Positions 22,610 to 45,387 of a DNA stretch of 64,000 nucleotides are shown here, one piece after another. The translations under genes and the position numbers were made by a program. The stretch spans positions 20 through 64,019 of the forward strand of contig CAZDLY010000008.1 of assembly GCA_964506575.1 (NCBI GenBank), read 5' to 3'. Under the pieces are notes generated by a model that was given only the letters and a program-made list of their open reading frames with translations, was not told the origin of the DNA and did no database searches. This DNA comes from an uncultured Akkermansia sp. Lineage in GTDB: Bacteria; Verrucomicrobiota; Kiritimatiellia; RFP12; JAAYNR01. Each line of letters starts with the position of its first letter. Within the stretch, counting starts at the first letter, position 1.

Positions 22610-22882
22610 TCATTGCCTTATCTTGGGATGACGGGCAAAGAAAAGATAGGAGGGGGCGCGGGTGATGCCGGTAAACACAATGCAGGCGCGATCACCCGGG
22701 TGGGCCAGTTCACGCAGCGGCGGCGTCCCAATCGGGTGATCCAGCGCTTCCCTTATGGCGGCTTCGACATTCTGCAAGGGTTTCGCCTCCTGCGAGACGG
22801 CGACGGCCACCTGCATTGTCGAAGGCAGGGAAAATTCAAGGTGGGATTTGCCATAGGGGATTTTGTAGGTCTGATTCTTCAT
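22610..22882 (-). pseudogene. truncated N-terminal fragment of a LarA-type (DUF2088) lactate racemase-like gene
   Basis: The 90 aa MKNQTYKIPYGKSHLEFSLP...IREALDHPIGTPPLRELAHPGDRACIVFTGITRA follow the LarA N-terminal pattern up to the (S/T)D(I/V)TRP block and then stop. Full-length LarA is about 420 aa. Confidence 0.55.
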
Positions 22883-25419
22883 TTTTTTTCTTTGGAAATA
22901 AGGAACCCATCAATTTCATGTCCAGCCCGCATGCCCTCCGCCACACATTGCGACACAGAGGCGCCACCGTTGATCACGCCGCCACCGGCAAAGACTCCGG
23001 GCAACCCGCAGGCGAACGAGGCGCCTTCAGCCGTTTTGACCAGGCCCTTCTCGGTGAACGAACACGCCTTGAGAGCCGATGCCAGTGATGCTTCGAGGCC
23101 CAACCCCATGGCCTCAATGACGAGCGTGGATGCAAGCATTGTTTCAGGCATTGACGCCGCTTCAAGGGAGTCCCCCCAACATCTGCGAATGCGCAGCCCC
23201 GTCACCTGGCCGTCGGCATCCACGCGATATCCCAGAGGGCGGGTCATGGTCAGAAAATGGACCCCTTCCGTGCGGAACCACGAATCGTCCATGTGCCAAT
23301 GCATCTCGGAGAGTGGCCCGGCATAGACAATCAGCAATTCGCGCGCGCCCCTTTCGAGAGCGACCCTTGCGCTGTCCATCGCGCTGTCGCCGCCCGCCAA
23401 CAGAATCACCCGTCCGCACAGCGTTCTGACACGGCCGGCTTTGGCCTGGGAGAGAAAATCCAATCCCGCGACAACCCCCGTCGCCGCTCCCAGCGATTGC
23501 TCGCCCCAGACTCCCGTCGCCAGAAACAGAGCATCGTGGCCGCGCCGCATCTCATCCAGCGTCAGGTCCCGTCCCAGCGCAACACCGTACTGGATCACCA
23601 GGCGGGCCTGGCGCAAGGCAGGCATCAGGATGGCTTCCGCCTCGGCATGGGCACCAGGAAAACGGCTTGAGGGAATGACCTGTTCGGGGGTTCCACCCAG
23701 ACGCGAGGCGCGTTCGAAAAGCACGACCTGATGACCCTGCTCCAGCAGGGTCGCCGCACAGGATAGGCCTGCGGGGCCAGCCCCGACAACAGCGACTTTC
23801 TTACCGCTATCGCACGCGGGCACGCGGATGCCCGTCAGACCGTTCCGGCGGGCTTCCCAGGACACGACGTATTGGATGTCGTGGATGGGTATCGGGGCGC
23901 CATCCAGCGTGCCGGCGACGCACCGGCCTTCACAGAGCGCTCCAACCGGGCACAGGTGCGAACACATCTCCGACAGGGCATTCGCCTGGCGGAGGATGTC
24001 ATACGCCACCCCGGTCTCCCCCTCCGCGAAAGCTCTGAGAAATGCGGGAACATCAATTCGCGTCGGACACCCCGCGCGACAGGGCGCCGGCTCGCAGCCA
24101 CGGCAGCGTCTGGCCTCCTCCTTCAGGTTGTCCTGCGCAAAATGACGGCGGCTTCGATATTCCCCGCTGTAGAACGCACCGTCCCTAATCGCGCACCCCG
24201 CATGCCCGCCGTCCTTCATCAGCTGGACACAGGCATCACAATTGATACAGCAGTCATCCGGCTCCATTCTCCCATTCTGGAGCAGGTCCCCTGCCAGTGA
24301 AGGATAGGCCAGCGCGGCACGTCCGACGCCAATCAATGTCGCACCGCCCCCCTGCAGCACGCCTGCTGCCACATGGGGAAGAAAATGCCTGAACCAACTG
24401 AATCCGCCGACGACCACCGCAACCCCGGGCAGCGCCCTCTGCACGGTCCGTGCAACCTCCGCCACCCGCACAAAGCTCTCCAGCGGATGCGCGTTTACCC
24501 CGGATGACAGCGTGGCTTCCGCGAGAGCCGAAAGATTGAGCAAGTTCACTCCCGCCGCCTGCAGGCTCAGAGCCAGTTCCACAGGTTCAGTGGAATCCAT
24601 CCAGGCCGGATCGACAGAGATTCGTGAAGCCAGGAGCCTTCCGGGATGCGCTGCGCTGAGCTTGGCGATCACCTCACGGAGAAAACGACTCCTGTTCTTC
24701 AGGGAACCTCCATAGCGGCCCGGTCGCGTGACCGCACACAGCAGTTCTGCCGGCAGGTCATGGTAACAGGCTTTAATGTCTACGCCGTCGAACCCCGCGT
24801 CCATCGCCAGGCGGCCTGCGTTGACAAACGTTTCCTGAAGCGCATCCAGGTAATCATCGGACACCACAGACGAATCCGACGGGCTTCCCGCTTGCGGATC
24901 GCGGGTGGCGATCAGGGGCGCGGCCTCGCCCTGCGGGCGGCAGTAACGCCCGGCATGGGCCAACTGAAGGATCACGATGATTTCATGTCCCCGGCGACGA
25001 CGGGCTGTCGCTCGGATCTCCCGGACCAGTTCGGCAAAGGCATTGAGATTTTTCCGGTTCATCCACAACTGCCGCGGATTCGAGCGGCCAGGCCCATCAA
25101 CGGCGGCAGCCTCCAACCAAATCAGTCCAAAGCCACCCTCCGCATAGCGCCGGTAACGCCGGACGGTCAGCTCCCCGGGGGCGCCGCCTTCGTCGGCGTC
25201 GCATCCCTCCATGGGCTGGACGCAGAGCCGGTTGGGGATGTTCAGTCCATTGATCAAAACGGGTTCGCCCAGCACAGCGACATCCCTGGAGACGGGCAGT
25301 TCCATCCTCAGGCGGCTGGCTTCCTCACACAGCTCGTTCAGCGTCCGAATCCGAAACGGTTCAAATGGTGTCGCTTGGGTTTTCACGGTTTCGGCTTTTT
25401 CCGGCATCTCGTCGCTCAC
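22879..25419 (-). CDS. fusion flavoprotein: OYE-like NADH:flavin oxidoreductase TIM barrel + Fe-S linker + GltD/DPD-like FAD/NAD(P) oxidoreductase
   Basis: The N-terminal part has an OYE pattern (LNIPNRLCVQPMEG..., QLAHAGR). The middle has a Cys-rich GltD-type Fer4 region (CRGCEPAPCRAGCP...CSHLCPVGALCEGRC). A Rossmann motif KKVAVVGAGPAGLSCA follows. 846 aa. Confidence 0.8.
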   Translation of the reverse strand: MSDEMPEKAETVKTQATPFEPFRIRTLNELCEEASRLRMELPVSRDVAVLGEPVLINGLNIPNRLCVQPMEGCDADEGGAPGELTVRRYRRYAEGGFGLIWLEAAAVDGPGRSNPRQLWMNRKNLNAFAELVREIRATARRRRGHEIIVILQLAHAGRYCRPQGEAAPLIATRDPQAGSPSDSSVVSDDYLDALQETFVNAGRLAMDAGFDGVDIKACYHDLPAELLCAVTRPGRYGGSLKNRSRFLREVIAKLSAAHPGRLLASRISVDPAWMDSTEPVELALSLQAAGVNLLNLSALAEATLSSGVNAHPLESFVRVAEVARTVQRALPGVAVVVGGFSWFRHFLPHVAAGVLQGGGATLIGVGRAALAYPSLAGDLLQNGRMEPDDCCINCDACVQLMKDGGHAGCAIRDGAFYSGEYRSRRHFAQDNLKEEARRCRGCEPAPCRAGCPTRIDVPAFLRAFAEGETGVAYDILRQANALSEMCSHLCPVGALCEGRCVAGTLDGAPIPIHDIQYVVSWEARRNGLTGIRVPACDSGKKVAVVGAGPAGLSCAATLLEQGHQVVLFERASRLGGTPEQVIPSSRFPGAHAEAEAILMPALRQARLVIQYGVALGRDLTLDEMRRGHDALFLATGVWGEQSLGAATGVVAGLDFLSQAKAGRVRTLCGRVILLAGGDSAMDSARVALERGARELLIVYAGPLSEMHWHMDDSWFRTEGVHFLTMTRPLGYRVDADGQVTGLRIRRCWGDSLEAASMPETMLASTLVIEAMGLGLEASLASALKACSFTEKGLVKTAEGASFACGLPGVFAGGGVINGGASVSQCVAEGMRAGHEIDGFLISKEKK

Positions 25420-26375
25420 TTTGAGATTGAGCTTGGGGCGGATTCCGCGTCACGCCCCCCCTCCGCTTTTCCGGTCGCCGCAAGATAGATGACAAACTCC
25501 TCTTTCCCGTCAAGGCCGAGCAAGGCGTCCATGCGGGCCTGGTCATAACCCAGGACCGCGCATACCCCACCCTGGATGGATTCCGCGGCGAGGTAAAGAT
25601 TCTGGCAGAGGTGTCCGGCCTCGATGGCGATGAGCTTTTGCGCGATACTGCCGTAGTGCCATTCGGTCCGGACAGGAATCGCGGCCCAGACAAAGACCAC
25701 CGCCGAACGGCCAATGAAGGACTGTCCGTAGCAGGAAGCCATAGCCTGCGTATGGAGTGTCGCATCCTCCTTGATCAACAACAGTTGATGTTCCAACGGG
25801 AGGTAGCGATATAATCCGGGGGCGACACCCGCGACCCGGCTGATAATCAGGTAAGTCTCAAAGGGATGCCTGGCACCGCCTGAGGGGACCGTCCGGAATT
25901 GCGTAACAGGCTTCCCGTTCTCGTCCCGGTCAACCCTGGTAATACCCTGCGTGGCCCAGAGCAGAAAACTCAGTTCTTCGAGAGAGAACGGCGCCGACGT
26001 ATAGTTCCGTCTGCTGCACCGGTTACGGATAGCGTCCTTCACGCTGACCGTGCCGACCTTGAATTCAGAGGGGGCGACCAGGTCTAGCCGTTTTGCCTCC
26101 GCCGGATAAGGTTTCTGTGCGGGCGGGGGTTGCAGGCCCCGACGGTCATCGGTATCCGTCCGCCAATCGGATAACGTTCCCCGCAGAAAAGCGCGGCGCT
26201 GTTCGAGTGGCAGCGCATCAACACCCCGGATCGGTTCGCGAGGCACGGCCATCGCTGGATCGGCACGGGAGGTCAAAGGCAGGGCTGTCAGGAGAAGCAG
26301 AAGCACGAGGGCCATCAACGTGAAGGGCCCGTCTCCAGAACCAACGCGCGAACGCTTTTGACAGGGGATCATCAC
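25416..26375 (-). CDS. SagB/ThcOx-type nitroreductase-family dehydrogenase with N-terminal signal/TM segment
   Basis: RCSRRNYTSAPFSLEELSFLLWATQGI...TVPSGGARHPFETYLI...GLYRYLP matches the SagB-type dehydrogenase signature. A hydrophobic N-terminus is present (FTLMALVLLLLLTALPLTSRA). Confidence 0.7.
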   Translation of the reverse strand: MMIPCQKRSRVGSGDGPFTLMALVLLLLLTALPLTSRADPAMAVPREPIRGVDALPLEQRRAFLRGTLSDWRTDTDDRRGLQPPPAQKPYPAEAKRLDLVAPSEFKVGTVSVKDAIRNRCSRRNYTSAPFSLEELSFLLWATQGITRVDRDENGKPVTQFRTVPSGGARHPFETYLIISRVAGVAPGLYRYLPLEHQLLLIKEDATLHTQAMASCYGQSFIGRSAVVFVWAAIPVRTEWHYGSIAQKLIAIEAGHLCQNLYLAAESIQGGVCAVLGYDQARMDALLGLDGKEEFVIYLAATGKAEGGRDAESAPSSISK

Positions 26376-26386
26376 ACAACCTCTGC

Positions 26387-27793
26387 CTATGGCCTCTTCT
26401 TTTTGGGTGCGCTCTTCGGCTCTTCGTAAGTCTCAACGCCGGGCTCTTTCACCTCTTCAAGCAGGCGCTTGACGATCGTGATAGAGTTTATTCCCTCCGA
26501 GTCGGCGGAAAAGTTGGTCAGGATACGATGGCGCAACACCGGCATGGCGGCGTGTCGGACATCATTGCAGCTGACATGGATACGGCCTTCCAGCACGGCA
26601 CGCGCCTTGGCTGCCAGGATTAGGAACTGTCCAGCACGCGGTCCGGCGCCGGTCGAGACATACTTCTTGGTGAACGCCGGAGCCGTTTCCTCGCCAGGCC
26701 GGGTTGCCCGAACCAGCTTGACCGCATAGCTGACCACATGCGGGGAGACCGGGATTTTCCGCACCACCTCCTGCAGATGGATCACCGCCTGCTTGTCGAC
26801 CACCACCTTCGGTTCTCCGCCCGCCGACATGGTGGTCCGGGCGACGATCTCCATCTCCTCGTCCAGCGTCGGATAGTCTACAAAAATATTGAACATAAAC
26901 CGGTCGAGCTGCGCTTCGGGCAACGGGTAGGTTCCCTCCTGCTCAATGGGATTCTGGGTGGCCAGCACAAAGAATGGCTTGTCGAGCGTGTAGACCTCTT
27001 TCCCGACGCTGACCTGTTTCTCCTGCATGGCCTCCAACAACGCGGCCTGCGTTTTCGGCGGCGTACGGTTGATTTCGTCCGCCAGCAGCATATTACAGAA
27101 GATCGGTCCCTGCATGAAGCGGAATTCCTTCTGCTGGGTCACCCGGTCTGTTTCCAGCACCTCGGTCCCCGTGATATCCGACGGCATCAAGTCGGGCGTA
27201 AACTGAATACGCTTAAACTTCATATCCAGCACTTTGGCGATCGTATTGACGGTCAGCGTCTTGGCCAGCCCAGGCAAGCCGATCAACAGGGCATGCCCGC
27301 CCGCGATGATGCACATTAAAATCTCATTGAGCACGTCTTCTTGGCCGATAATGACCTTGCCCACCTCCCTGCGGATGGCATCCATGGATTCGCGCATCTG
27401 TTTGACCAACTGAAGGTCGCCATCCGTCGTCAAGCTTTTTTGTTCATGTTCAGGGGCGCTTTTCGGGGTGGGCGACGGAGCATGTCCAGCGCCTGGCTTC
27501 GCCTCATTCCTAAAGACAAAGATCGTACCGCCGACGGCGATGAGATCATTCTCCTTCAACGGGGAGGTCACGACGGCGGCATCATTGAGAAGGGTTCCGT
27601 TGGCGCTGTCGAGATCAGCCAGGCACCACACCCCTTTATCGTCGCAAAAAACTCTAGCGTGATGGCGTGACACCATCGCATCGTTCTCCAGCCTGATGGC
27701 ACACGTCTCATCACGCCCGACCACTATTTCACCGCCTGCCAAATCAAATGCCTGCCCCTCAAACTGCCCCTTCTTCACTAACAGACTAGCCAT
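26387..27793 (-). CDS. FHA domain - MoxR-family AAA+ ATPase fusion
   Basis: The N-terminus has FHA motifs (VVGRDETCAIRLENDAMVSRHHARV...LADLDSANGTLLND). A MoxR core follows a linker (IIGQEDVLNEILMCIIAGGHALLIGLPGLAKT, LADEINRTPPKTQAALLEAMQE). Confidence 0.85.
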   Translation of the reverse strand: MASLLVKKGQFEGQAFDLAGGEIVVGRDETCAIRLENDAMVSRHHARVFCDDKGVWCLADLDSANGTLLNDAAVVTSPLKENDLIAVGGTIFVFRNEAKPGAGHAPSPTPKSAPEHEQKSLTTDGDLQLVKQMRESMDAIRREVGKVIIGQEDVLNEILMCIIAGGHALLIGLPGLAKTLTVNTIAKVLDMKFKRIQFTPDLMPSDITGTEVLETDRVTQQKEFRFMQGPIFCNMLLADEINRTPPKTQAALLEAMQEKQVSVGKEVYTLDKPFFVLATQNPIEQEGTYPLPEAQLDRFMFNIFVDYPTLDEEMEIVARTTMSAGGEPKVVVDKQAVIHLQEVVRKIPVSPHVVSYAVKLVRATRPGEETAPAFTKKYVSTGAGPRAGQFLILAAKARAVLEGRIHVSCNDVRHAAMPVLRHRILTNFSADSEGINSITIVKRLLEEVKEPGVETYEEPKSAPKKKRP

Positions 27794-27814: not shown

Positions 27815-28534
27815 TTATTTGTTCTTCTTATCGTTACTCATATCAATGTCACCCAGGTTCTTCACTTGATCCGTGACCCGGATGTTTGACAATAGATCCG
27901 AGTAATGGTGTATCGGATTGAGCAGACGGAGATCGACCGTCACGGGATAGAGATCCCTTTTCTGGACCACCTGCCAGCCCACGCCAACATCCTTCAACCA
28001 AATCAATTTGAACGTCCGGCGTCCCTGCCCTTTGAGTGGTTCGTAATCCGCGGTGACCGTTCCAGGGCCATCCCGGTACTGTGTCACCACGCACCGGGCG
28101 AAGTTGCCCCGTCCGGTGGTGCCGGCGATGCGGTGAACAGTCTTTTTGTTAAAAAACGGATCGGATTCGTTGACGATCTGGGTGATGCTTTGACGATCCT
28201 TATCTGTTAGCGTATCGGGTTCGAACGACAGCTGGAGGCCCTCAAAAAACTCATTTTCATAGATGACGAAGAGGTCATATTTTGCCATCGGCAGATTCCC
28301 GAACGCGAACTCCCGCCGGCTCGTACCGGAGATCTGCCCTTCGTAGACGAAGCGCGGTTCGTCAGGCGGCATGGCCAGTATCTGGAGGATCGGCAATTCC
28401 GGCTTAATGATTCGACCCGCGATCCCGCCTGAAGCGGACAGATCCGGTGCCGTATACAACCGGCCGCGTTCTTTTTCGGCAGCCCATGCCGACAGCGTCA
28501 ATAACAGCAGGCCAACACCCGCAATTCTTTTCAT
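27815..28534 (-). CDS. exported hypothetical protein (possible CarboxypepD_reg-like beta-sandwich at N-terminus)
   Basis: Has a signal peptide (MKRIAGVGLLLLTLSAWA) and an AGGGAG RBS before the ATG at 28534. GGIAGRII...FAFGNLPMAKYDLFV loosely resembles carboxypeptidase-regulatory-like domains. No firm family assignment. Confidence 0.55.
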   Translation of the reverse strand: MKRIAGVGLLLLTLSAWAAEKERGRLYTAPDLSASGGIAGRIIKPELPILQILAMPPDEPRFVYEGQISGTSRREFAFGNLPMAKYDLFVIYENEFFEGLQLSFEPDTLTDKDRQSITQIVNESDPFFNKKTVHRIAGTTGRGNFARCVVTQYRDGPGTVTADYEPLKGQGRRTFKLIWLKDVGVGWQVVQKRDLYPVTVDLRLLNPIHHYSDLLSNIRVTDQVKNLGDIDMSNDKKNK

Positions 28535-28554
28535 AAACAGCTCCCTATCGACGA

Positions 28555-30891
28555 TCACTCCTCGTTGCCGCCAAATACCGTCCGCTTACGGATTTCTTTC
28601 TCAAGCTTCTCAATGGCCGCGTCGGGTTCCTTCATGGCATACATGCAATCTTTAATCATTTGCAGGGCCTCGGGCAGGAAATTCGAAACGTCAACCTGGT
28701 CGCAATACGCGGTCAGAAGCTTGCGAGCCCGTTTGTAATCCTCCAACCGCATATACAGCTTGGCCTCGCAAAGAATGTAATCGCCGGAAATTTTAGCCAT
28801 CGGAAAGGCCCGTTCCCATCGTTGCAAGGCTTGGAACGCCTCCAGGTAGAATCCCTGGCTGATCAGCATGTCCACATATTCAGAGGCAGCCACCTCCCGG
28901 ATAGCGGCCAGTTTCCAGGTAGGCACATTCTGAGGCGCGCCCATCGGATCCTGAGGCGTGACCACCGGAACCAGACGGTTCTTCCCCTCCTTCGGGTCAC
29001 TCTTGCCACCCTTGACTAGCTTTTTCCGGGACTCAATGAGGTCACGCACCTTCCTCGGGCCTTCGAGCACGGGCCGCAGCGGGCCCTCGAGCACGGGCCG
29101 CAGTGGCGTTGTCTGGACCTTCTGGGCCTCGGCCTTGGAGCGGCTCTGGACATCCCCGTACCGTTGCGTGGCGGCGTTGATGTTACGAGAGAGAAACTCC
29201 AGATCTCCCATGCGTACCTTGGCCCATTCTCCCCCGTCGCCGCTGCTAGTGATCAGCGGAGTGATGATTCTTCTGGCGCCATCCAAATCATCCAGATAAT
29301 ACATCAGGACTTCCGCCTGCTTCAGCTTCAAGACCACGGACCGGGTCCCGGGAAAGACCTCCTCGCTGAATTCGGAAGCCCATTTCATCGCCTCCTTGGG
29401 CTTGCGGGGCCCCATGGAAAAGAGGGCGACATCCTGTAACAGGGCCTTCTTGTCGGGATCCAGCTTCTTCTTGAAAAAGTCCCACCGCTGCGTCACAACA
29501 TATTCCAGCAATGGGTTCGCGCCTTTCAGATCGAATACACGGAAGAAATTGTTCCACATCGCCGCATCCCATTGCGCGAGGGGGTCCGCCTGATCCGGGT
29601 AAGCCCTCAACATCGTATAGCAGGCCAGGTTAAAATCCTGCCGCGTATTCTCGTCGTCTAAGCTACTGCTGTGGCTTGCGCACGTATAGAAAATCGATCT
29701 GGCGGAGGCCTTCTTCCCCGCCACCTCCGCAGTCAGCGTCACCGGGGTGTATTTTCCCCCTTTAAAGAGCCAACGGATTTCGGGGCCGTCGATCCTGGCC
29801 TCCGGGGTTGTCTCCATATGCCAGCTGTACCGGGTTTCGGGCGGATTATTCTTTGTCCAGGCTTTCAGACCGTAAGCGATCAGTTCATCCTCTCCCGGGA
29901 ACACGAACACACTGGTGGACCGCACATCAAATGCGGCAACCGGCCCGGTGCGTGACTGGATATCGCGAACACGACACTGGCCGGATTTCACGACATGCCT
30001 GGCATCAATCAGGCACGATTCATTCATAGACGTTCCGGGATATCGCAGGTCTTTCGCGCGAGGACCGCCAAGCTCGCCAATGGTTGTCTTGGGTGTACGC
30101 CAGCTGAACATCATGGGACCGCTGGCTCTATTGGGGTCCACGCTGTATCCGTAGAGTTCCACTTTATGCAGACCCGCGGACAAATGAATCGTGTCTCCGA
30201 CACCGCCGACCTTCTCGTTCTTTTTGGCCAGCTTCAGCATCTTGCCGTCAATCGCGATCTCCATGTTGCCGGATCTTGCCTGGGGAGCAACCCAGGTGGG
30301 CCCTGGATCCGTGACTTGGATATACGCCAACATATACATGGCGCTACCTCCTGCCAGCCCCTCCGACATGGCCATTGGAATCGACTGGTTCCCCCAGGCG
30401 GCTGGCTTCCAGGCCTGATTAGCACATTCGGCCTTCGGGCCGACAGCGCCCAAGGCAGCCAGTCTCATCGCATCTTCCCTGTCCCGGGTTTCATTGATTG
30501 CACAGAGGATGGCACTGGGCGTCAGGCCGCTCTGCGGGGTCCAGAGGTTCAGTCTGCTGGCACTTCGAAAATAGACCACCACTTTCTCTCCAGCCTGAGG
30601 AGCTTCGAAGACCAGACCACACCCAGTATCTTTGCAATGCCACAGTATGCCACTCTTCAATGCATTGCCATTTTCATCAACCACAACCGACTCCGGCGTG
30701 GAGCCAGGCAGCAGCCCGCCATCCTGGATGAACACGAAATAGCCTGCACTCGGATGGCTGGGCGTGTTGACCAACTCCACCACGAACCGGACCGACGCAT
30801 CCTTAATCGCCCAGTCTCCGGAAATTTCAACCCCGGACGCAGAGAGCACAAAACCCGTAACCAGTATACCTAATGTTTTGATCTTCATCAC
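28555..30891 (-). CDS. large exported hypothetical protein, beta-rich N-half and TPR-like helical C-terminus
   Basis: Has a signal peptide (MMKIKTLGILVTGFVLSA). The C-terminal repeats (YLEAFQALQRWERAF..., AKLYMRLEDYKRARKLL) look TPR-like. It overlaps both neighbouring genes by 4 nt. No firm family assignment. Confidence 0.55.
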   Translation of the reverse strand: MMKIKTLGILVTGFVLSASGVEISGDWAIKDASVRFVVELVNTPSHPSAGYFVFIQDGGLLPGSTPESVVVDENGNALKSGILWHCKDTGCGLVFEAPQAGEKVVVYFRSASRLNLWTPQSGLTPSAILCAINETRDREDAMRLAALGAVGPKAECANQAWKPAAWGNQSIPMAMSEGLAGGSAMYMLAYIQVTDPGPTWVAPQARSGNMEIAIDGKMLKLAKKNEKVGGVGDTIHLSAGLHKVELYGYSVDPNRASGPMMFSWRTPKTTIGELGGPRAKDLRYPGTSMNESCLIDARHVVKSGQCRVRDIQSRTGPVAAFDVRSTSVFVFPGEDELIAYGLKAWTKNNPPETRYSWHMETTPEARIDGPEIRWLFKGGKYTPVTLTAEVAGKKASARSIFYTCASHSSSLDDENTRQDFNLACYTMLRAYPDQADPLAQWDAAMWNNFFRVFDLKGANPLLEYVVTQRWDFFKKKLDPDKKALLQDVALFSMGPRKPKEAMKWASEFSEEVFPGTRSVVLKLKQAEVLMYYLDDLDGARRIITPLITSSGDGGEWAKVRMGDLEFLSRNINAATQRYGDVQSRSKAEAQKVQTTPLRPVLEGPLRPVLEGPRKVRDLIESRKKLVKGGKSDPKEGKNRLVPVVTPQDPMGAPQNVPTWKLAAIREVAASEYVDMLISQGFYLEAFQALQRWERAFPMAKISGDYILCEAKLYMRLEDYKRARKLLTAYCDQVDVSNFLPEALQMIKDCMYAMKEPDAAIEKLEKEIRKRTVFGGNEE
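29057..29104. repeat. 24-nt tandem duplication inside the 778-aa gene
   Basis: GGGCCTTCGAGCACGGGCCGCAGC is followed by GGGCCCTCGAGCACGGGCCGCAGT (2 mismatches). The pair encodes PLRPVLEG-PLRPVLEG on the minus strand. Confidence 0.9.
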
Positions 30892-33800
30892 ATCACTTCA
30901 TTCAGCTTTTTATAATATTCGGCATTCAATTTTCGATATTTCTCAGGCGACAGCTCTTGATCAGCCTCGATCACATCCGTCAGGGTCGAGATGAAATTTT
31001 GTCCATCCAGGCTAGTTGCGCTCCCTTCGCCAAGTTCGGTCTTGGCTTTATTCAAGGCCCCGATCGCTTTGCGCCGCAGTTCCGCCATCTGACTGATGGG
31101 GACGCCCTTGGAGATCGCATCCGTGGCCTGGCGGATGTGGTGGGCCGCAGCCTCCAGCGAATCCGTACGCAGGCCTTTCATGGAAGCCTGCGCATACGCC
31201 TGGTTTGTCTTCTTGGCCATATTCTCCAGTGCCTGGGACCAGCTGCCGGCCTCGGTTGCGTTCATGCGATCCGTGCCGCCGCCGTCTCCCCAGTCATCAC
31301 CCTTGCCCGATCCGAGCTTGCCGCCTCCCGTGGCCTTCGTATCGGCTTCGCCATCTGCCGTGACCTGTCCGGACTGGGTGGGGTCCTGCGTGCGCCGCGC
31401 CTGGATCGCGTCATCCCCCTTCCCGATGGTGCCCGAACCGGCGGCGGTTTCTCCGCTCGACATTCCCTGGCGCCCGACATTCGACCGTCCGTCCTGCTCT
31501 TTGTGATCCGGAGCCTCGTTGCCAGACTTTCCCTTTGCTGAAAAGGCCGTGATATCGCCTTCCATGATTTCACCGCCGCTTTCCATGTCAGGGGCAGAGG
31601 CGTTGATTGCGCCGTCATCGGCCTCCTTGGCCAGCTGCTCGTCAATCTTCTGAAGATCACCAATGATATCCGCCAATGATGTTTGCAGGGGCGTCAGAGC
31701 GACTCCCTCCGGCATCTCTTCCTTGTCCGCAGCCTCCACGGTAATCTTGGTGGCGTCCGGTTCCTTGCCGAGCCACATTTCAAAATCGTCCAGCAGCTCT
31801 GTGGCTTTCTCCATTGCGTCCAGCAGGTATTCACGCTTGCTCACCGCCTTCTCCGCCACAGGCCCCCCGCCGGGTGTCTTCTCGCCGGAACCTGCCGTCT
31901 GCTTCACCTCTTCAAACGTGGAGAAGACATCCTCCACCAAGTCGTTCCCCACATTCAGGTGCGCAAATATATCGAGATCCTTGGGGATTTGAAGCATCGC
32001 ATCCTTGATATTCTTCTCAATCTCGGCGGCCTGCGCTTCCATGACATCGAAATCTTTGGTGTTCTTGTTTTTGTTAGCCTCGATGCTGTCCATTTCTTCT
32101 TTGAGCTTTTTCGCCATCTCCTTGAGTTTTTCCAGTTTGGCTTCCGCAACCTTGATGGCATCGATCATCTCCTCCTGCGTTTCCTTTTCACTCTTCGCAA
32201 GGACCTCCTCAAACCGTTTACGTGCGGCCTGAAGCTTGGTATAGGCATTGCGCTCATGCTGGACAGCGTCAGTCGCTTTGTTTCCCTCCAGCTGTTCGGC
32301 GGCGAGCAGCATGTCGTCACGGATCTTTTCCCTCTCACAGAACGTCGCGACGGATTCCACAAAAGCCGCCTGATCCTTATCTTCCCACTGACCGGACGAC
32401 GCTTCAGCCCTGCAAGCCTTAATGAAGGCGATGAGCTCTGAACTCAGCTTGTCCTGATGAGTCACAACCGACGAAGCCACCGCGACGTTCTGGGTTGCAC
32501 AGTTCAAGGTCGTCCGGAGGATCTCCGCCTGTCCGGTGATAATGCCGTCCAGGATGCCGATCAGAGAACTGGTTTTATTGGCCTCCTGTACCTTATTGGC
32601 CGACTCGCCTGCAAAGGTCAGTTGGCGCAAGATTTTTTCCTGCATGGAAAGCGCCAGGACGACCTGCTGGTCTTTCGCCGCGACATCCTTCACTTCAGGA
32701 ACCTTCCTCAATGCCGGAATCACCTCTGCCATTTCATTCACATACAGTTTCTTGACCGTTGCCATCAGGTTTCCAAAAATGCCGTCACCGCCCTTTTCGA
32801 CCAGCAGCCTCACCGTCTTCCGGATGAGTTCCTGCTGTTCCACCCTTTCATTCCATTGTTCATCCTGAGAGGCCATCAATTTTCCCTGAAGCTGTTTGGT
32901 GCGGTCGATATTCTCGCGCTGGAGTTCAATCACCTGACTCAGCCCTTCAGCGGCCTTCTTGAACTCCTCCTGTCGCTTTTTCGCCGCTGACGAAAGATCC
33001 TCCCGTTCAAAACTGAGCATCGGCGAGATCGTCACGTTTGGGGATTCCGCACGATTGTCCTTCGCGACAACCCGCAACGTGAGGCTACCCGTATCGGCCG
33101 TCTTCCGAATGTCACCCTTCCACAGGAAGGAAAGGTCTTGGCCTCGGTATTCCTCCCGGCTGTAGCGCTTCAGTATCTTGGGCTGTTCAGCCGTGTCCCC
33201 GGGACCGGGGAGTTGCTCGATGATGATCTCGCTGAACCCGAAATCATCGGAAACGGAGAAGTCAATGCTGGGCGCAAAGCCGGGCGGCAGGGGCACGGGC
33301 TTCTGGGGATAGTTGACCGTGAGCACCGGGGGCCTGTCCGGGAGGAGGTTAAACCCCATTACGGCCTCGGCCTCGTCCCCATTCGTCGCCACTGCGGCAA
33401 GCTTCAGGGCGGCCCCGTTGGTCATGGTGAGGGTGGCGACGCCATTCCGGCTCTCTCCTTTCAGCACCAGGTTCATAGGTTCGCCCATCCCGGAAAGGAC
33501 AAGCGAGCGCAGCGGGGTGTTGCACGCGGCCGTCAGTTCGGCCTTCGAACCGTACGGGATGTCGATCGCCTTCGACTGCCCGTCATACTTCCGTGCGGGC
33601 AACCCCATATAGGCGGGCGGGACCACCTTCAGCAGAAGGGAGTTGAACGCCAGGGGTGGCCGCAAGGTAATCTCATTCCAGCCCGCGACATAGGCGTCGC
33701 CGGCCCGGAAGCGGTATTTCAAGGCCGTCGTGACCTTGTTCAGCGTATAGGAAAAAACCTCTGATCCGGCACCTGTGATCGTACCCAGATTATAGGTTAT

Positions 33801-34487
33801 CACCTCGCCATCCGCGGGGTACACGTCCAGTCGCACCGCATGTCCCGACTGGCCTTCAACCGTACACGACAACGGGATGTCTCCGCCCTGCAGCACCGTG
33901 GCATCGCCCGGGCTGACAGCGAGAATACGTGTCAGGCTTACCGGCGCGATTTCGGCAAACGGATTCAGAATCCGTACCATCGAAACCGACCAGGCCCGCC
34001 CCAGAAAAGCGAAGGGAACCACGAGCAGAACGACCGCCACCCCCAGCGCCAGCTGTGCCTGTCGCAACGTACGCCGATCCTTCATTGAGGCTAAATTCAG
34101 TCCATCCCAATGAGGGATATTCATTTTGACATACGTCGCGATGAAAGCATCCCGGACGCCGACGGCGGAGAATTGCAGGAAGTTGATCAGGTGGTTGTCG
34201 AGTTCAGGAAAGGTCTGTTCCACGCGGACAGCCACGCCCTCCGGAGTATGACGGCGAGATAACGTCTTCATCACAAGCCCCACAAGAACGGTGGAGCCCA
34301 GCAACAGAAAACTCCAGGCCGTCAGCCGTCCGCCCCGGCTAAAACGCGCCAGCCAATCGCTCCATGCCAGACAGAGGAGCAGCACGAGCACCAGGGCCAG
34401 TCCAGCCGTGAACTGGATCTCCGCCCGCCATCGGTTCAGCATCTGTCCGATTCTTTTTAGCTGTCCAACCACTGCGGAGAGCGCCAT
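30888..34487 (-). CDS. giant membrane-anchored coiled-coil protein, DUF4175-like
   Basis: Has two N-terminal TM helices, then VEQTFPELDNHLINFLQF, a beta-rich middle, a long Glu/Lys coiled-coil, an acidic Gly-rich region and a C-terminal ...EKYRKLNAEYYKKLNE tail. I recall this tail from DUF4175 proteins of MoxR/BatA operons. Confidence 0.6.
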   Translation of the reverse strand: MALSAVVGQLKRIGQMLNRWRAEIQFTAGLALVLVLLLCLAWSDWLARFSRGGRLTAWSFLLLGSTVLVGLVMKTLSRRHTPEGVAVRVEQTFPELDNHLINFLQFSAVGVRDAFIATYVKMNIPHWDGLNLASMKDRRTLRQAQLALGVAVVLLVVPFAFLGRAWSVSMVRILNPFAEIAPVSLTRILAVSPGDATVLQGGDIPLSCTVEGQSGHAVRLDVYPADGEVITYNLGTITGAGSEVFSYTLNKVTTALKYRFRAGDAYVAGWNEITLRPPLAFNSLLLKVVPPAYMGLPARKYDGQSKAIDIPYGSKAELTAACNTPLRSLVLSGMGEPMNLVLKGESRNGVATLTMTNGAALKLAAVATNGDEAEAVMGFNLLPDRPPVLTVNYPQKPVPLPPGFAPSIDFSVSDDFGFSEIIIEQLPGPGDTAEQPKILKRYSREEYRGQDLSFLWKGDIRKTADTGSLTLRVVAKDNRAESPNVTISPMLSFEREDLSSAAKKRQEEFKKAAEGLSQVIELQRENIDRTKQLQGKLMASQDEQWNERVEQQELIRKTVRLLVEKGGDGIFGNLMATVKKLYVNEMAEVIPALRKVPEVKDVAAKDQQVVLALSMQEKILRQLTFAGESANKVQEANKTSSLIGILDGIITGQAEILRTTLNCATQNVAVASSVVTHQDKLSSELIAFIKACRAEASSGQWEDKDQAAFVESVATFCEREKIRDDMLLAAEQLEGNKATDAVQHERNAYTKLQAARKRFEEVLAKSEKETQEEMIDAIKVAEAKLEKLKEMAKKLKEEMDSIEANKNKNTKDFDVMEAQAAEIEKNIKDAMLQIPKDLDIFAHLNVGNDLVEDVFSTFEEVKQTAGSGEKTPGGGPVAEKAVSKREYLLDAMEKATELLDDFEMWLGKEPDATKITVEAADKEEMPEGVALTPLQTSLADIIGDLQKIDEQLAKEADDGAINASAPDMESGGEIMEGDITAFSAKGKSGNEAPDHKEQDGRSNVGRQGMSSGETAAGSGTIGKGDDAIQARRTQDPTQSGQVTADGEADTKATGGGKLGSGKGDDWGDGGGTDRMNATEAGSWSQALENMAKKTNQAYAQASMKGLRTDSLEAAAHHIRQATDAISKGVPISQMAELRRKAIGALNKAKTELGEGSATSLDGQNFISTLTDVIEADQELSPEKYRKLNAEYYKKLNEVM

Positions 34488-34489
34488 AA

Positions 34490-35137
34490 CTACTCTCCTT
34501 TCTTCACCGTAACCTGGCTTGGCAATTTCACAATCTTAACATTGGCGAGATAGAAATTGCCTGCGCCATAAGTCGCCCCGGGCACGAATATCAGGACTGT
34601 GAGATACCTGACTTTTTGCAAGTGGCTGAAGGCAAGCTCCGAAATCTCCGGCATGGGAAACTCCACGCTGACGCTCTCCCAGGCGGCCCCGTTCACATCC
34701 ACGCTCGCCGCCTTGTAGGTGCGCCGCATATCCTGAATCAGCGGTTTATCGTCCGGCGGAATTCCCGGTTTCAGGTTATACCCCTGGAACAGTATCTTCA
34801 CGCTCACGGCGTCAACAAGAATGTCAAACGTGCACTTGTACCGATCCCCCGTCTTGTACGGAATCAGCGGTGTTTCGACCTTTGACTCGTATCCGGACGG
34901 CACGGCCATTTTCAATACATTCTTTTTGCCTCGGAACTCCGGCAGATAAGAAACATTGAGATGATTGCCCATCTGGTGCTTGTTGGCCGTCCAGTCAAAA
35001 TCGATATTCCAACCGTCAAAATGGCCCTTCTCCGAATCGAACGAGTGGTTATAACATACGTTCTCATCGACAGCCTGGGATGACAGCGTCATGGCCAGAC
35101 CACCGATCATGCACCCCAAAAACTGCATCCACTTCAT
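34490..35137 (-). CDS. exported hypothetical protein (possible CBM/jelly-roll fold)
   Basis: Has a signal peptide (MKWMQFLGCMIGGLAMTLSSQA). The 215-aa sequence is beta-rich (GWNIDFDWTANK...). It lies 2 nt from the downstream gene. Confidence 0.5.
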   Translation of the reverse strand: MKWMQFLGCMIGGLAMTLSSQAVDENVCYNHSFDSEKGHFDGWNIDFDWTANKHQMGNHLNVSYLPEFRGKKNVLKMAVPSGYESKVETPLIPYKTGDRYKCTFDILVDAVSVKILFQGYNLKPGIPPDDKPLIQDMRRTYKAASVDVNGAAWESVSVEFPMPEISELAFSHLQKVRYLTVLIFVPGATYGAGNFYLANVKIVKLPSQVTVKKGE

Positions 35138-44589: not shown

Positions 44590-45387
44590 TCACCGAGGTT
44601 TGGCCATGACACTCCAATGATTCCCGTCTGACAACACGATAATGTAAGTGCCCACATAAATAAGATTAACGTTGTTCACCCAGTCGCCCTCCTCACGGAT
44701 CAAGGAACGGCCCTCTCCCGTCTTGAACTCAACCCCATTCTTGGAGCCCGGAACCATGCGGACCGGTTTAAGATCCATGCGTTCGGCATACCTCAGGTTC
44801 AAGGCGTCCTTCAGATCTGAACGTAGCCCCAATACTGCCGATTCCAGATCATAGCGTTGGGTTTCCATCCCCTTAATCAAACTTCCCCTCCGATAGACCC
44901 ACGGTTTGCCCCAGCGATCCGTCAAGGGGAGCGGGGCTTTGTCTCCGAGCGCTTTGACCGCCTCCAATGAAGCGGGGAACTCCATATCGCGCCTGTAGCT
45001 CTCCGTCAGCGCATGCGTCACGTGCTCCCGGTCCATCCGGCTGAGCCAGCTCCGAGCCATCTCATCGCCCGCCTTCCGGAGCCCCGTCGCGGGGCCCTTG
45101 ACCAGCAGGGTAGTGAAGATCGCAGCTGCGGTGCCCGTGTCGCCCCGCTTCAGGCGATTCCATGCCTCAAGTCCAGAGACCACAACTGTGAACGCATCTT
45201 GCGGCGCACGGGCTCTGAATGTTGTGCAAGCCTCCGCAACCTCCGAGGCTTCGAAGGCGCTATTCGTGCCGACGCACCAGACATCCCACAGGCCTTTTTC
45301 ATCAGCTCTGACGGATTGCGCACGGCCTGCCATGGCAACGGCCAGAAAAAGCACCACGCAAACTTCAACTTTTAACATCGATTTCAT
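44590..45387 (-). CDS. exported hypothetical protein
   Basis: Has a signal peptide (MKSMLKVEVCVVLFLAVAMAGRAQS). 265 aa with no recognisable family. It is the first gene of the minus-strand block. Confidence 0.5.
   Translation of the reverse strand: MKSMLKVEVCVVLFLAVAMAGRAQSVRADEKGLWDVWCVGTNSAFEASEVAEACTTFRARAPQDAFTVVVSGLEAWNRLKRGDTGTAAAIFTTLLVKGPATGLRKAGDEMARSWLSRMDREHVTHALTESYRRDMEFPASLEAVKALGDKAPLPLTDRWGKPWVYRRGSLIKGMETQRYDLESAVLGLRSDLKDALNLRYAERMDLKPVRMVPGSKNGVEFKTGEGRSLIREEGDWVNNVNLIYVGTYIIVLSDGNHWSVMAKPR

What the first reader, a model, noticed from the sequence alone, without database searches (positions are those of the whole stretch)
26387..27793. FHA domain fused to a MoxR AAA+ ATPase
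The first ~100 residues are a clear FHA domain (GRDETCAIRLENDAMVSRHHARV...LADLDSANGTLLND). A ~40-aa Pro/Ser/Glu-rich linker follows, and then a complete MoxR core. FHA domains read phosphothreonine marks, so this ATPase may be recruited or gated by Ser/Thr-kinase signalling. The vWA/MIDAS partners of MoxR are encoded upstream in the same operon. No kinase or phosphatase is present in the window. I do not recall this architecture as part of the characterised MoxR systems (RavA, CbbQ, classical BatI). The gene is also last in its system rather than first.
Basis: partly seen in the sequence, partly recalled or inferred. Interest (0 to 1): 0.6.

Follow-up and report, generated by a model that had tools for sequence, protein, structure and literature searches.

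The report
Phosphothreonine-reader domain fused to MoxR ATPase
The gene is a real, conserved fusion of a phosphothreonine-binding FHA domain to the MoxR ATPase of a large cell-envelope operon; it recurs in Kiritimatiellia, Lentisphaeria and related bacteria, I found no published description, and it suggests that protein kinases switch this poorly understood system on or off.

Summary
The gene at 26387-27793 lies on the minus strand and encodes 468 aa:
- FHA domain, residues 23-88 (Pfam E 1.9e-15)
- disordered Ala/Pro-rich linker of about 25 aa
- complete MoxR core: AAA_3 (E 4e-63) plus AAA_lid_2

It is not a mis-assembly. More than 100 database clusters (57-92% identical) carry the same in-frame fusion. 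About 30 of 301 sampled genomes of the phylum have it.

The FHA part evolves fast (median 44% identity, against 82% for the ATPase). Its phosphothreonine-pocket residues (G26, R27, S42, H45, N65, G66, T67, N70) are nevertheless 96-100% conserved.

The main fusion clade is monophyletic. Its sister group is a set of Planctomycetota MoxRs encoded next to DUF4159 proteins.

The gene sits in a conserved operon: DUF4159, DUF58, BatA-vWA, GATase1-like, four unknown proteins, FHA-MoxR, SagB-like nitroreductase, OYE fusion. It is therefore not the last gene.

The genome has 7 Hanks kinases, none linked to the locus, and no detectable PP2C phosphatase. It also has two other FHA-ATPase fusions.

Best reading: a kinase-gated or kinase-recruited MoxR of a Bat-like envelope system. 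The phospho-dependence is inferred, not shown. It is a new variant of a known kind, of moderate interest.

The parts
26387..27793 (-). FHA-MoxR gene, 468 aa (P0001)
   Evidence: ORF. Pfam FHA + AAA_3 + AAA_lid_2. A GAAAGGG Shine-Dalgarno-like stretch lies upstream of the ATG.
27503..27793 (-). FHA domain (residues 1-97) with pThr-pocket residues G26, R27, S42, H45, N65, G66, T67 and N70
   Evidence: Pfam E 1.9e-15. AF2 gives a beta-sandwich with pLDDT above 90. The pocket residues are 96-100% conserved in 105 homologues.
27425..27502 (-). Disordered Ala/Pro/Ser/Lys-rich linker (residues 98-123), ending in the conserved junction motif [M/L]-[T/A]-[T/S]-x-[D/E]-D-L
   Evidence: AF2 pLDDT below 50 for residues 99-117. 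Linker length is 23-92 aa across homologues. T or S is present at positions 122/123 in 102 of 105 sequences.
26387..27424 (-). MoxR AAA+ module: helix alpha-0 (residues 124-144), AAA_3 (167-301), AAA_lid_2 (376-441)
   Evidence: Pfam. Closest solved structure is 2R44, E 2.7e-84. Walker A K178/T179, Walker B D239/E240, and R298 and R386 are invariant in 105 sequences.
27815..28558 (-). p247: exported protein of unknown family, always directly upstream of FHA-MoxR in the main clade
   Evidence: No Pfam or NCBIfam hit. Signal-peptide-like N-terminus. Synteny in about 25 loci.
28555..30891 (-). p778: exported protein with a weak TPR-like C-terminus; part of the conserved trio p778-p247-FHA-MoxR
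   Evidence: Weak YbgF-TPR hit, E 3.4e-4. Synteny.
30888..34487 (-). p1199: large protein with two N-terminal hydrophobic segments
   Evidence: No family hit. Conserved position in relatives.
34490..35137 (-). p215: exported protein of unknown family
35188..37389 (-). 733-aa membrane protein with a GATase1_like/DUF4350 domain
   Evidence: Pfam PF07090, E 1.6e-7. Conserved in relatives and in Planctomycetota MoxR operons.
37386..39584 (-). BatA-type protein: N-terminal double-TM anchor plus vWA domain
   Evidence: Pfam BatA and VWA_2. TIGR02226.
39591..40544 (-). DUF58 (vWA-like, MIDAS DRSHS): the presumed cytoplasmic partner of the MoxR, with no adjacent MoxR of its own
   Evidence: Pfam DUF58, E 1e-45. 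Sequence. The other DUF58 genes of the genome each sit beside their own MoxR.
40572..42591 (-). DUF4159 tandem-domain protein (41281-42591) and exported p234 (40572-41276)
   Evidence: Pfam DUF4159, E 1e-65. Both are conserved in G243 and G257.
22879..26375 (-). SagB-like nitroreductase (25416-26375) and OYE-Fer4_20-FAD oxidoreductase fusion (22879-25419), co-transcribed downstream of FHA-MoxR
   Evidence: Pfam. An 11-nt gap and a 4-nt overlap. Syntenic in most relatives.
42638..45387 (-). Head of the island: p265, YcaO and a small Cys-rich ORF. In relatives the same genes follow the OYE gene instead, so the gene order is circularly permuted.
   Evidence: Pfam YcaO. Synteny in L034-L043.

Best explanation
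The gene encodes the single cytoplasmic MoxR AAA+ ATPase of a roughly 23-kb Bat-like envelope operon typical of PVC bacteria: DUF4159, DUF58, BatA-vWA, GATase1-like membrane protein, and four exported or membrane proteins of unknown family.

In an ancestor of Kiritimatiellia and Lentisphaeria, this MoxR acquired an N-terminal FHA domain joined by a disordered Ala/Pro-rich tether.

Shown:
- The fusion is real, in frame, catalytically intact and monophyletic in its main clade.
- It is embedded in a conserved gene set.
- The FHA pocket residues that contact phosphothreonine are under strong purifying selection while the rest of the FHA domain drifts.

Inferred:
- The FHA domain docks on a phosphothreonine written by one of the genome's unlinked Hanks-type kinases. 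The target would be a cytoplasmic part of the system (DUF58, or the cytoplasmic loops of BatA, the 733-aa protein or p1199), or the MoxR's own junction motif.
- MoxR/DUF58-driven remodelling or assembly of the envelope complex then happens only when and where that mark is present.
- This is the same logic as kinase/FHA-dependent recruitment of an AAA+ ATPase to other envelope machines.
For: - Domains: FHA 57.5 bits, AAA_3 211 bits, AAA_lid_2 57 bits; 2R44 at E 2.7e-84; mycobacterial FhaA FHA structures at about 1e-7.
- Fold: (FHA pLDDT above 90, linker below 50).
- Conservation of the fusion: more than 100 clusters, about 26 loci; about 30 of 301 genomes of the phylum.
- Selection on the pocket. 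G26 105/105, R27 102/105, S42 104, H45 104, N65 104, G66 104, T67 101, N70 104. FHA median identity is 44% against 82% for the ATPase.
- Active ATPase: (Walker A/B, R298 and R386 invariant).
- Belongs to the operon: the operon's DUF58 has no MoxR of its own, whereas four of the five other MoxR paralogues (L001, L003, L004, L006) each sit beside their own DUF58; the fifth locus (L005) showed none. The order BatA ... p778-p247-FHA-MoxR-NitroR-OYE is conserved.
- Phylogeny. The main FHA clade has SH-aLRT 94-98. Its sister (SH-aLRT 95) is a set of Planctomycetota MoxRs divergent from DUF4159 genes.
- Signalling capacity: 7 Pkinase genes. Three of the 5 FHA proteins of this genome are N-terminal fusions to oligomeric P-loop ATPases (sigma-54 activator, T2SSE ATPase, MoxR).
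Against: - No experiment, and no phospho-site or kinase assigned.
- Kinases are not genomically linked: only 1 of about 26 FHA-MoxR loci has one within 10 kb.
- No PP2C, PP2C_2 or SpoIIE phosphatase was detected in this 90%-complete genome, so a reversible switch is not evident.
- A more distant FHA-MoxR lineage (L104, L113) has Val in place of the pocket Asn, so pThr binding may not be universal.
- Most operon products next to the gene are exported and cannot touch a cytoplasmic FHA domain.
- Some FHA-MoxR genes (G163, G277) sit away from any DUF58/vWA partner.
Confidence: 0.6

Rival explanations
1. Auto-regulatory switch. The FHA domain binds a phosphothreonine in the protein's own junction motif (T122/T123, T-x-x-D), either in cis or on a neighbouring protomer. 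Phosphorylation of the MoxR itself would then block or drive hexamer assembly, as in GarA/OdhI self-inhibition or Rad53/Chk2 oligomerisation.
For: - The motif [M/L]-[T/A]-[T/S]-x-[D/E]-D-L lies at the end of the tether.
- S or T is present at positions 122/123 in 102 of 105 sequences, and Thr in 76 of 105.
- D126 at position +3 is 98/105 conserved. From my own knowledge, this fits the pT-x-x-D preference known for some FHA domains.
- The closest FHA-less MoxRs keep D-D-L but have no TT before it.
- The flexible tether of 23-92 aa would allow back-binding.
Against: - 29 of 105 sequences have no Thr there, only Ser. From my own knowledge, FHA domains discriminate against pSer.
- The residue sits exactly at the N-cap of helix alpha-0, which starts at 124. 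S/T-x-x-D/E is a generic helix-capping box.
- The preceding Met (40 of 105) looks like the relic of the ancestral MoxR start codon.
- Several distant members lack S/T at that place.
Confidence: 0.15
2. Phospho-independent scaffold. The FHA domain is only a protein-protein docking or oligomerisation module and reads no phosphorylation. From my own knowledge, this is what is proposed for the FHA-like domains of T3SS YscD and T7SS EssC. It would tether MoxR to a membrane component.
For: - Strong match to the Yop-YscD_cpl model, E 1.9e-14.
- No linked kinase.
- No PP2C phosphatase in the genome.
- One lineage has lost the pocket Asn.
Against: - All canonical pThr-contacting residues are 96-100% conserved while the rest of the domain is only 44% identical. 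From my own knowledge, phospho-independent FHA-like domains typically lack these residues.
- The genome encodes 7 Hanks kinases.
Confidence: 0.2
3. Artefact: two separate genes (an FHA protein and a MoxR) joined by a frameshift, a mis-assembly or a wrong start call.
For: Public annotation of at least two orthologues starts at an internal Met and omits the FHA part: P0068 in L035 and P0073 in L028.
Against: - There is a single uninterrupted frame here.
- The same in-frame fusion is found in more than 100 clusters from independent assemblies.
- In L035 and L028 the FHA-coding part is in frame upstream of the annotated start.
- The FHA pocket is conserved at the protein level.
Confidence: 0.01

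Closest known systems
MoxR-proper / DUF58 / BatA ('Bat-like') envelope operons: Bacteroides fragilis bat operon, spirochaete homologues, Rhizobium leguminosarum cmdA-D (named from my own knowledge and from earlier scan notes). The solved MoxR structure is 2R44 from Cytophaga hutchinsonii.
   Same: - AAA_3 + AAA_lid_2 ATPase, 2R44 at E 2.7e-84.
- Same operon as a DUF58 vWA-like protein and a BatA-type double-TM vWA protein.
- Function in all of these is still poorly defined.
   Different: - An N-terminal FHA domain and tether.
- MoxR is encoded 12 kb downstream of DUF58 instead of directly before it.
- The operon contains DUF4159, a GATase1-like protein and four family-less proteins, plus YcaO, SagB-like and OYE genes, rather than BatB-E.
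Planctomycetota MoxR genes divergently transcribed from DUF4159 proteins (for example L073), and the Planctomycetota MoxR-DUF58-BatA-GATase1-like operons
   Same: - The former are the sister clade of the FHA-MoxR clade (SH-aLRT 95), with 56-61% identity in the ATPase core.
- Same partner families: DUF4159, DUF58, BatA, GATase1-like.
- They share the D-D-L start of helix alpha-0.
   Different: - No FHA domain.
- In the canonical operons MoxR is the first gene.
Kinase/FHA-controlled ATPases of envelope machines. Named from my own knowledge: the Pseudomonas aeruginosa H1-T6SS PpkA/PppA-Fha1 relay that recruits ClpV1, FHA domains of EssC (T7SS), and the FHA-bearing ABC transporter Rv1747. In this genome: FHA-sigma-54 activator and FHA-T2SSE ATPase fusions.
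   Same: - An FHA domain couples Ser/Thr phosphorylation (or docking) to an oligomeric P-loop ATPase that serves a membrane machine.
- The same N-terminal FHA-ATPase layout occurs in two other proteins of this genome.
   Different: - The ATPase here is a MoxR, for which I found no description of a direct FHA fusion.
- The kinase and phosphatase are not in the locus.
MoxR-vWA-beta-propeller ternary conflict systems (eLife 2020, PMC7159879) and the Esr sensing pathway of Actinobacteria (bioRxiv 2026, PMC13622651)
   Same: A MoxR-vWA pair is functionally linked with FHA and Ser/Thr-kinase signalling.
   Different: - In those systems the FHA domain sits on the vWA/effector component or on a separate protein, and the kinase and phosphatase are in the locus.
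- Here the FHA domain is fused to the MoxR itself.
- There is no beta-propeller, effector or kinase in the operon.
- The bpMoxR model scores far below AAA_3: 41.7 against 211 bits.

Membership tests
FHA domain (PF00498) | Profile match above the curated threshold | tested here: met
   57.5 bits against a cut-off of 20.7, E 1.9e-15, covering model positions 1-67 of 67.
FHA domain (PF00498) | Conserved pThr-contacting residues (Gly-Arg, Ser-x-x-His, Asn-Gly) | tested here: met
   G26, R27, S42, H45, N65 and G66 are present and 97-100% conserved in 105 homologues.
FHA domain (PF00498) | Beta-sandwich fold | tested here: met
   The AF2 model has ten strands in residues 2-96 with pLDDT 91-96. This is a prediction only.
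FHA domain (PF00498) | Binds phosphothreonine peptides | not testable with these tools
   Needs peptide-binding assays.
MoxR AAA+ ATPase (AAA_3, MoxR-proper type) | AAA_3 core plus AAA_lid_2 | tested here: met
   AAA_3 covers model positions 1-131 of 131 at 211 bits; AAA_lid_2 scores 57 bits. 2R44 matches at E 2.7e-84.
MoxR AAA+ ATPase (AAA_3, MoxR-proper type) | Intact Walker A, Walker B and conserved arginines | tested here: met
   GLPGLAKT (172-179), D239/E240, R298 and R386 are invariant in 105 sequences.
MoxR AAA+ ATPase (AAA_3, MoxR-proper type) | Encoded with a vWA/DUF58 partner | tested here: met
   DUF58 and BatA-vWA are in the same minus-strand operon, but 12 kb upstream and not adjacent. 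The same holds in relatives.
Bat (aerotolerance) operon of Bacteroides and spirochaetes | moxR first, followed by DUF58, batA, batB, batC (TPR), batD, batE | tested here: not met
   MoxR, DUF58 and BatA are present. There is no recognisable BatB-E set, only a weak TPR hit (E 3.4e-4), and MoxR lies near the 3' end. It works like a Bat-type system but is not a member in the strict sense.
MoxR-vWA-beta-propeller ternary systems (bpMoxR, PF20030) | bpMoxR-type ATPase with a vWA-effector protein and a beta-propeller sensor | tested here: not met
   bpMoxR scores 41.7 bits, far below AAA_3 on the same residues. No beta-propeller or effector domains are present in the operon.
Esr-type MoxR-vWA + kinase/phosphatase + FHA relay | Ser/Thr kinase and PP2C phosphatase encoded in the locus | tested here: not met
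   The window's contig holds no Pkinase. No PP2C, PP2C_2 or SpoIIE is found in the genome. A kinase lies near only 1 of about 26 related loci.

The most novel reading that the evidence does not exclude
The FHA domain and the conserved T-T-x-D-D-L junction form a phospho-switch built into a AAA+ protein. A Hanks kinase phosphorylates the junction. FHA-pThr binding between protomers then drives or blocks MoxR hexamer formation on the membrane complex. Envelope remodelling by a Bat-like system (here coupled to YcaO/SagB-like/OYE chemistry) would thus be under direct kinase control. This would be the first regulatory input known for any MoxR-DUF58 system.
Probability: 0.12. Interest if true: 0.7.

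Novelty: new variant of a known kind. Interest (0 to 1): 0.45.

Why it matters
MoxR-DUF58-vWA ('Bat-like') operons are widespread. From my own knowledge, their function and regulation have stayed unclear since they were first described.

A MoxR that carries its own phosphothreonine reader gives a concrete, testable regulatory input: which kinase, which phospho-site, and what changes when the pocket is mutated. It also gives a handle (the FHA domain as bait) for pulling out the cytoplasmic partners of the system.

The fusion is a clean lineage marker for part of the PVC superphylum.

Public annotation sometimes removes it by choosing an internal start codon, so architecture surveys undercount it.

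Tried and rejected
1. Representative-library search with residues 1-165, meant to find FHA-MoxR fusions outside the PVC group. The top 150 hits were swamped by multi-FHA proteins. Only a few fusion fragments, two full-length members and one FHA-MoxR-MoxR tandem were recovered. Spread beyond Verrucomicrobiota stays open.

2. Genomic linkage to kinases. tblastn of a kinase domain against all related loci found one case only, L020. Rejected as a conserved feature.

3. Phosphatase search (PP2C_2, SpoIIE, PP2C). Nothing found. The genome is 90% complete, so absence is not proven.

4. Junction TT motif as the phospho-acceptor. It could not be separated from a helix N-cap or from the relic of the ancestral start. 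Kept only as a minor rival.

5. Internal start at L121 (TTG). No Shine-Dalgarno sequence lies upstream. Not pursued.

6. Empty-site test in the same-genus genome G251. Only pckG matches, and there is no synteny on either side, so an insertion site could not be shown.

7. Single origin of all FHA-MoxRs. The f37 lineage (L104, L113) falls outside the main clade on a long branch. One or two origins cannot be decided.

8. Literature search for 'MoxR' with 'FHA domain' or 'forkhead-associated', and for 'DUF4159'. No paper describes the fusion. The library lacks most subscription journals.
Full report
**1. Observation**

The coordinates 26387-27793 hold one ATG-started ORF of 468 aa on the minus strand. 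A GAAAGGG ribosome-binding-like stretch lies just upstream.

| Pfam family | Residues | Score | E-value |
|---|---|---|---|
| FHA | 23-88 | 57.5 bits (cut-off 20.7) | 1.9e-15 |
| AAA_3 | 167-301, whole model | 211 bits | 4.4e-63 |
| AAA_lid_2 | 376-441 | 57 bits | 1.6e-15 |

No NCBIfam equivalog reaches its cut-off. The closest solved structures are the Cytophaga hutchinsonii MoxR 2R44 for residues 135-448 (E 2.7e-84) and the mycobacterial FhaA (TB39.8) FHA domains for residues 10-95 (about 1e-7).

An AlphaFold2 model built on 80 homologues gives three regions:
- a confident beta-sandwich for residues 1-97 (pLDDT 91-96);
- a disordered stretch at 99-117 (pLDDT below 50);
- a helix starting at residue 124 that leads into the AAA+ core.

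The strand is minus. The linker is about 25-30 aa rather than 40. The gene is not the last one.

**2. Not an artefact; a conserved family**

A search of 5.8 billion proteins returned more than 100 clusters of 440-540 aa at 57-92% identity. All carry FHA + AAA_3 + AAA_lid_2. Where named, they come from Kiritimatiellia, Lentisphaerae or Verrucomicrobiota MAGs and are labelled only 'AAA family ATPase' or 'MoxR-like ATPase'.

A scan of one genome per species gave 24 loci with the full-length fusion, all from those groups. The best FHA-less matches (54-62% in the ATPase core) come from Planctomycetota, Zixibacteria, Eisenbacteria and Ignavibacteria.

In an even sample of 301 genomes of the phylum, about 30 carry a full-length or long-linker copy.

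At least two public annotations start the gene at an internal Met and drop the in-frame FHA part: P0068 in L035 and P0073 in L028.

**3. Selection on the FHA pocket**

In 105 aligned full-length homologues the FHA region is only 44% identical to the query at the median, against 82% for the ATPase. The residues that contact phosphothreonine in characterised FHA domains are nonetheless almost invariant:

| Residue | Conserved in |
|---|---|
| G26 | 105/105 |
| R27 | 102/105 |
| S42 | 104/105 |
| H45 | 104/105 |
| N65 | 104/105 |
| G66 | 104/105 |
| T67 | 101/105 |
| N70 | 104/105 |

Walker A (K178, T179), Walker B (D239, E240), R298 and R386 are invariant.

The tether is Ala/Pro-rich and 23-92 aa long. 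It ends in a conserved [M/L]-[T/A]-[T/S]-x-[D/E]-D-L motif. FHA-less relatives begin with M...D-D-L-Q-A-V. The motif therefore probably contains the ancestral MoxR N-terminus, and its S/T sits at the N-cap of helix alpha-0. Thr is present at positions 122/123 in 76 of 105 sequences. A role as a phospho-acceptor is possible but cannot be separated from a structural role.

**4. Context**

On the minus strand the genes run as follows:

| Gene product | Coordinates |
|---|---|
| p265 | 44590-45387 |
| YcaO | 43235-44521 |
| small Cys-rich ORF | 42638-43099 |
| tandem DUF4159 | 41281-42591 |
| p234 | 40572-41276 |
| DUF58 (MIDAS DRSHS) | 39591-40544 |
| BatA-vWA | 37386-39584 |
| 733-aa GATase1-like membrane protein | 35188-37389 |
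| p215 | 34490-35137 |
| p1199 | 30888-34487 |
| p778 | 28555-30891 |
| p247 | 27815-28558 |
| FHA-MoxR | 26387-27793 |
| SagB-like nitroreductase | 25416-26375 |
| OYE-Fer4_20-FAD fusion | 22879-25419 |

The gaps around the FHA-MoxR gene are 21 nt and 11 nt, so it is co-transcribed.

The operon's DUF58 has no adjacent MoxR. Four of the five other MoxR paralogues of the genome (L001, L003, L004, L006) each sit beside their own DUF58; the locus of the fifth (L005) showed none. FHA-MoxR is therefore the ATPase of this operon.

In about 22 related loci the order BatA, GATase1-like, p215, p1199, p778, p247, FHA-MoxR, nitroreductase, OYE is kept. In many of them YcaO and the small ORF follow the OYE gene rather than heading the cluster, which is a circular permutation.

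Other arrangements also occur:
- In G243 the trio p778-p247-FHA-MoxR, headed by the small ORF, forms its own unit divergent from the rest.
- In a more distant lineage (L104, L113; 46% identity) FHA-MoxR is the first gene, followed by DUF4159 and DUF58.
- In G163 and G277 it stands away from any vWA partner.

The fusion, not the gene position, is the conserved feature.

**5. Phylogeny**

On the ATPase core, the main FHA-bearing clade is monophyletic once three mislabelled rows are corrected. L042 and L043 have long linkers, and L045 is cut by a contig end. Support is SH-aLRT 94-98.

Its sister (SH-aLRT 95) is a Planctomycetota clade of stand-alone MoxRs divergently transcribed from DUF4159 proteins. 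The genome's own paralogues fall outside.

The L104/L113 lineage falls elsewhere on a long branch, so one or two origins remain possible. That lineage also has Val at the pocket Asn position.

**6. Signalling inventory**

The genome (2.93 Mb, 90% complete) has:
- 7 Pkinase genes, none on this contig;
- 5 FHA proteins;
- no PP2C_2, SpoIIE or PP2C hit.

Three of the five FHA proteins are N-terminal fusions to oligomeric P-loop ATPases: a sigma-54 activator, a T2SSE-type secretion ATPase and this MoxR. This points to a common regulatory logic. Only one of about 26 related loci (L020) has a kinase within 10 kb.

**7. Horizontal origin of the operon here**

The block at 22.6-45.4 kb has 57.3% GC against 65.3% for the genome. 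The nearest relatives (87-90% identity) lie in contigs of 54-56% GC and belong to another family of the order.

The same-genus genome G251 (95% complete) lacks both FHA-MoxR and p778. An empty site could not be shown because synteny around pckG is not kept.

**8. Mechanism**

Shown:
- a catalytically intact cytoplasmic MoxR;
- an FHA domain with a selected pThr pocket on a flexible tether;
- membership of a conserved Bat-like envelope gene set.

Inferred (about 60%): the FHA domain binds a pThr written by an unlinked Hanks kinase on a cytoplasmic element of the system, and so recruits or licenses MoxR/DUF58 action.

Rivals:
- self-binding to the junction motif (about 15%);
- phospho-independent docking (about 20%);
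- artefact (below 1%).

**9. Comparison and novelty**

The protein works like the MoxR of Bat-type operons and belongs to the AAA_3 family. It fails strict membership of three named systems:
- the Bacteroides bat operon (no BatB-E, different gene order);
- the bpMoxR ternary systems (no beta-propeller or effectors);
- the Esr relay (no kinase or phosphatase in the locus).

Papers that link MoxR-vWA systems with FHA domains place the FHA domain on other proteins (PMC7159879, PMC13622651). No searchable paper describes a direct FHA-MoxR fusion or DUF4159 systems.

Earlier notes of this scan, which are unchecked AI notes, describe the same fusion in other PVC genomes. My independent synteny and tree results agree with them.

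Verdict: a new variant of a known kind. It is common in its lineage, uncharacterised, and of moderate interest.

Noticed in passing
window 22600-45400: The whole operon is a lower-GC block: 57.3% against 65.3% for the genome. Its closest relatives (87-90% protein identity) lie in contigs of 54-56% GC from another family of the order. The same-genus genome G251 lacks FHA-MoxR and p778. This suggests horizontal acquisition of the complete 23-kb cluster.
   Followed up: partly
window 42638-44521 versus loci L034-L043: The gene order is circularly permuted between relatives. Here YcaO and the small Cys-rich ORF head the cluster. In many relatives they follow the OYE gene at the tail. The persistent linkage in both orders argues for functional coupling of the YcaO/SagB-like/OYE genes with the MoxR system.
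   Followed up: partly
genome contigs C4:12255-12443 and C60:8135-8290 (loci L016, L019): Two more N-terminal FHA-ATPase fusions occur in the same genome: FHA-sigma-54 activator (487 aa) and FHA-T2SSE (CpaF/TadA-like) secretion ATPase (580 aa). With the MoxR, 3 of the 5 FHA proteins are ATPase fusions.
   Followed up: partly
whole genome G000: Seven Hanks-type kinases were found, but no PP2C, PP2C_2 or SpoIIE phosphatase, in a 90%-complete assembly.
   Followed up: partly
P0013, P0015, P0018, P0019, P0021, P0026 and P0174 (database proteins): Tandem MoxR-MoxR proteins of 695-798 aa are among the close homologues (inferred from their length and high bit scores; not checked with Pfam here). One 916-aa FHA-MoxR-MoxR protein has two AAA_3 modules behind one FHA domain.
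   Followed up: partly
L035 and L028 (public records JBAXMJ010000027.1 and JBAYXX010000107.1): Public annotation starts the orthologous gene at an internal Met (proteins of 347 and 331 aa named 'MoxR family ATPase'). This drops the in-frame FHA domain, so architecture surveys undercount the fusion.
   Followed up: yes
L086:221-865 (minus strand) next to MoxR at L086:1388-2653: In one Planctomycetaceae MAG, a separate 214-aa FHA protein and a response-regulator-like gene lie divergently upstream of an FHA-less MoxR-DUF58 pair. This is a possible unfused counterpart, seen only once.
   Followed up: no
L020:14264-19587: In a Lentisphaerae-type locus, a 1228-aa Ser/Thr kinase-WD40 protein and an FHA-GAF-HATPase_c protein lie 3-8 kb downstream of FHA-MoxR. 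This is the only kinase seen near any FHA-MoxR locus.
   Followed up: no
window 40572-41276 and 44590-45387: p234 and p265 are exported proteins without any family hit. Both are conserved in the distant relative G243 (28-40% identity) between DUF4159 and DUF58; in G257 only p265 was found there. They appear to be further unrecognised members of the system.
   Followed up: no
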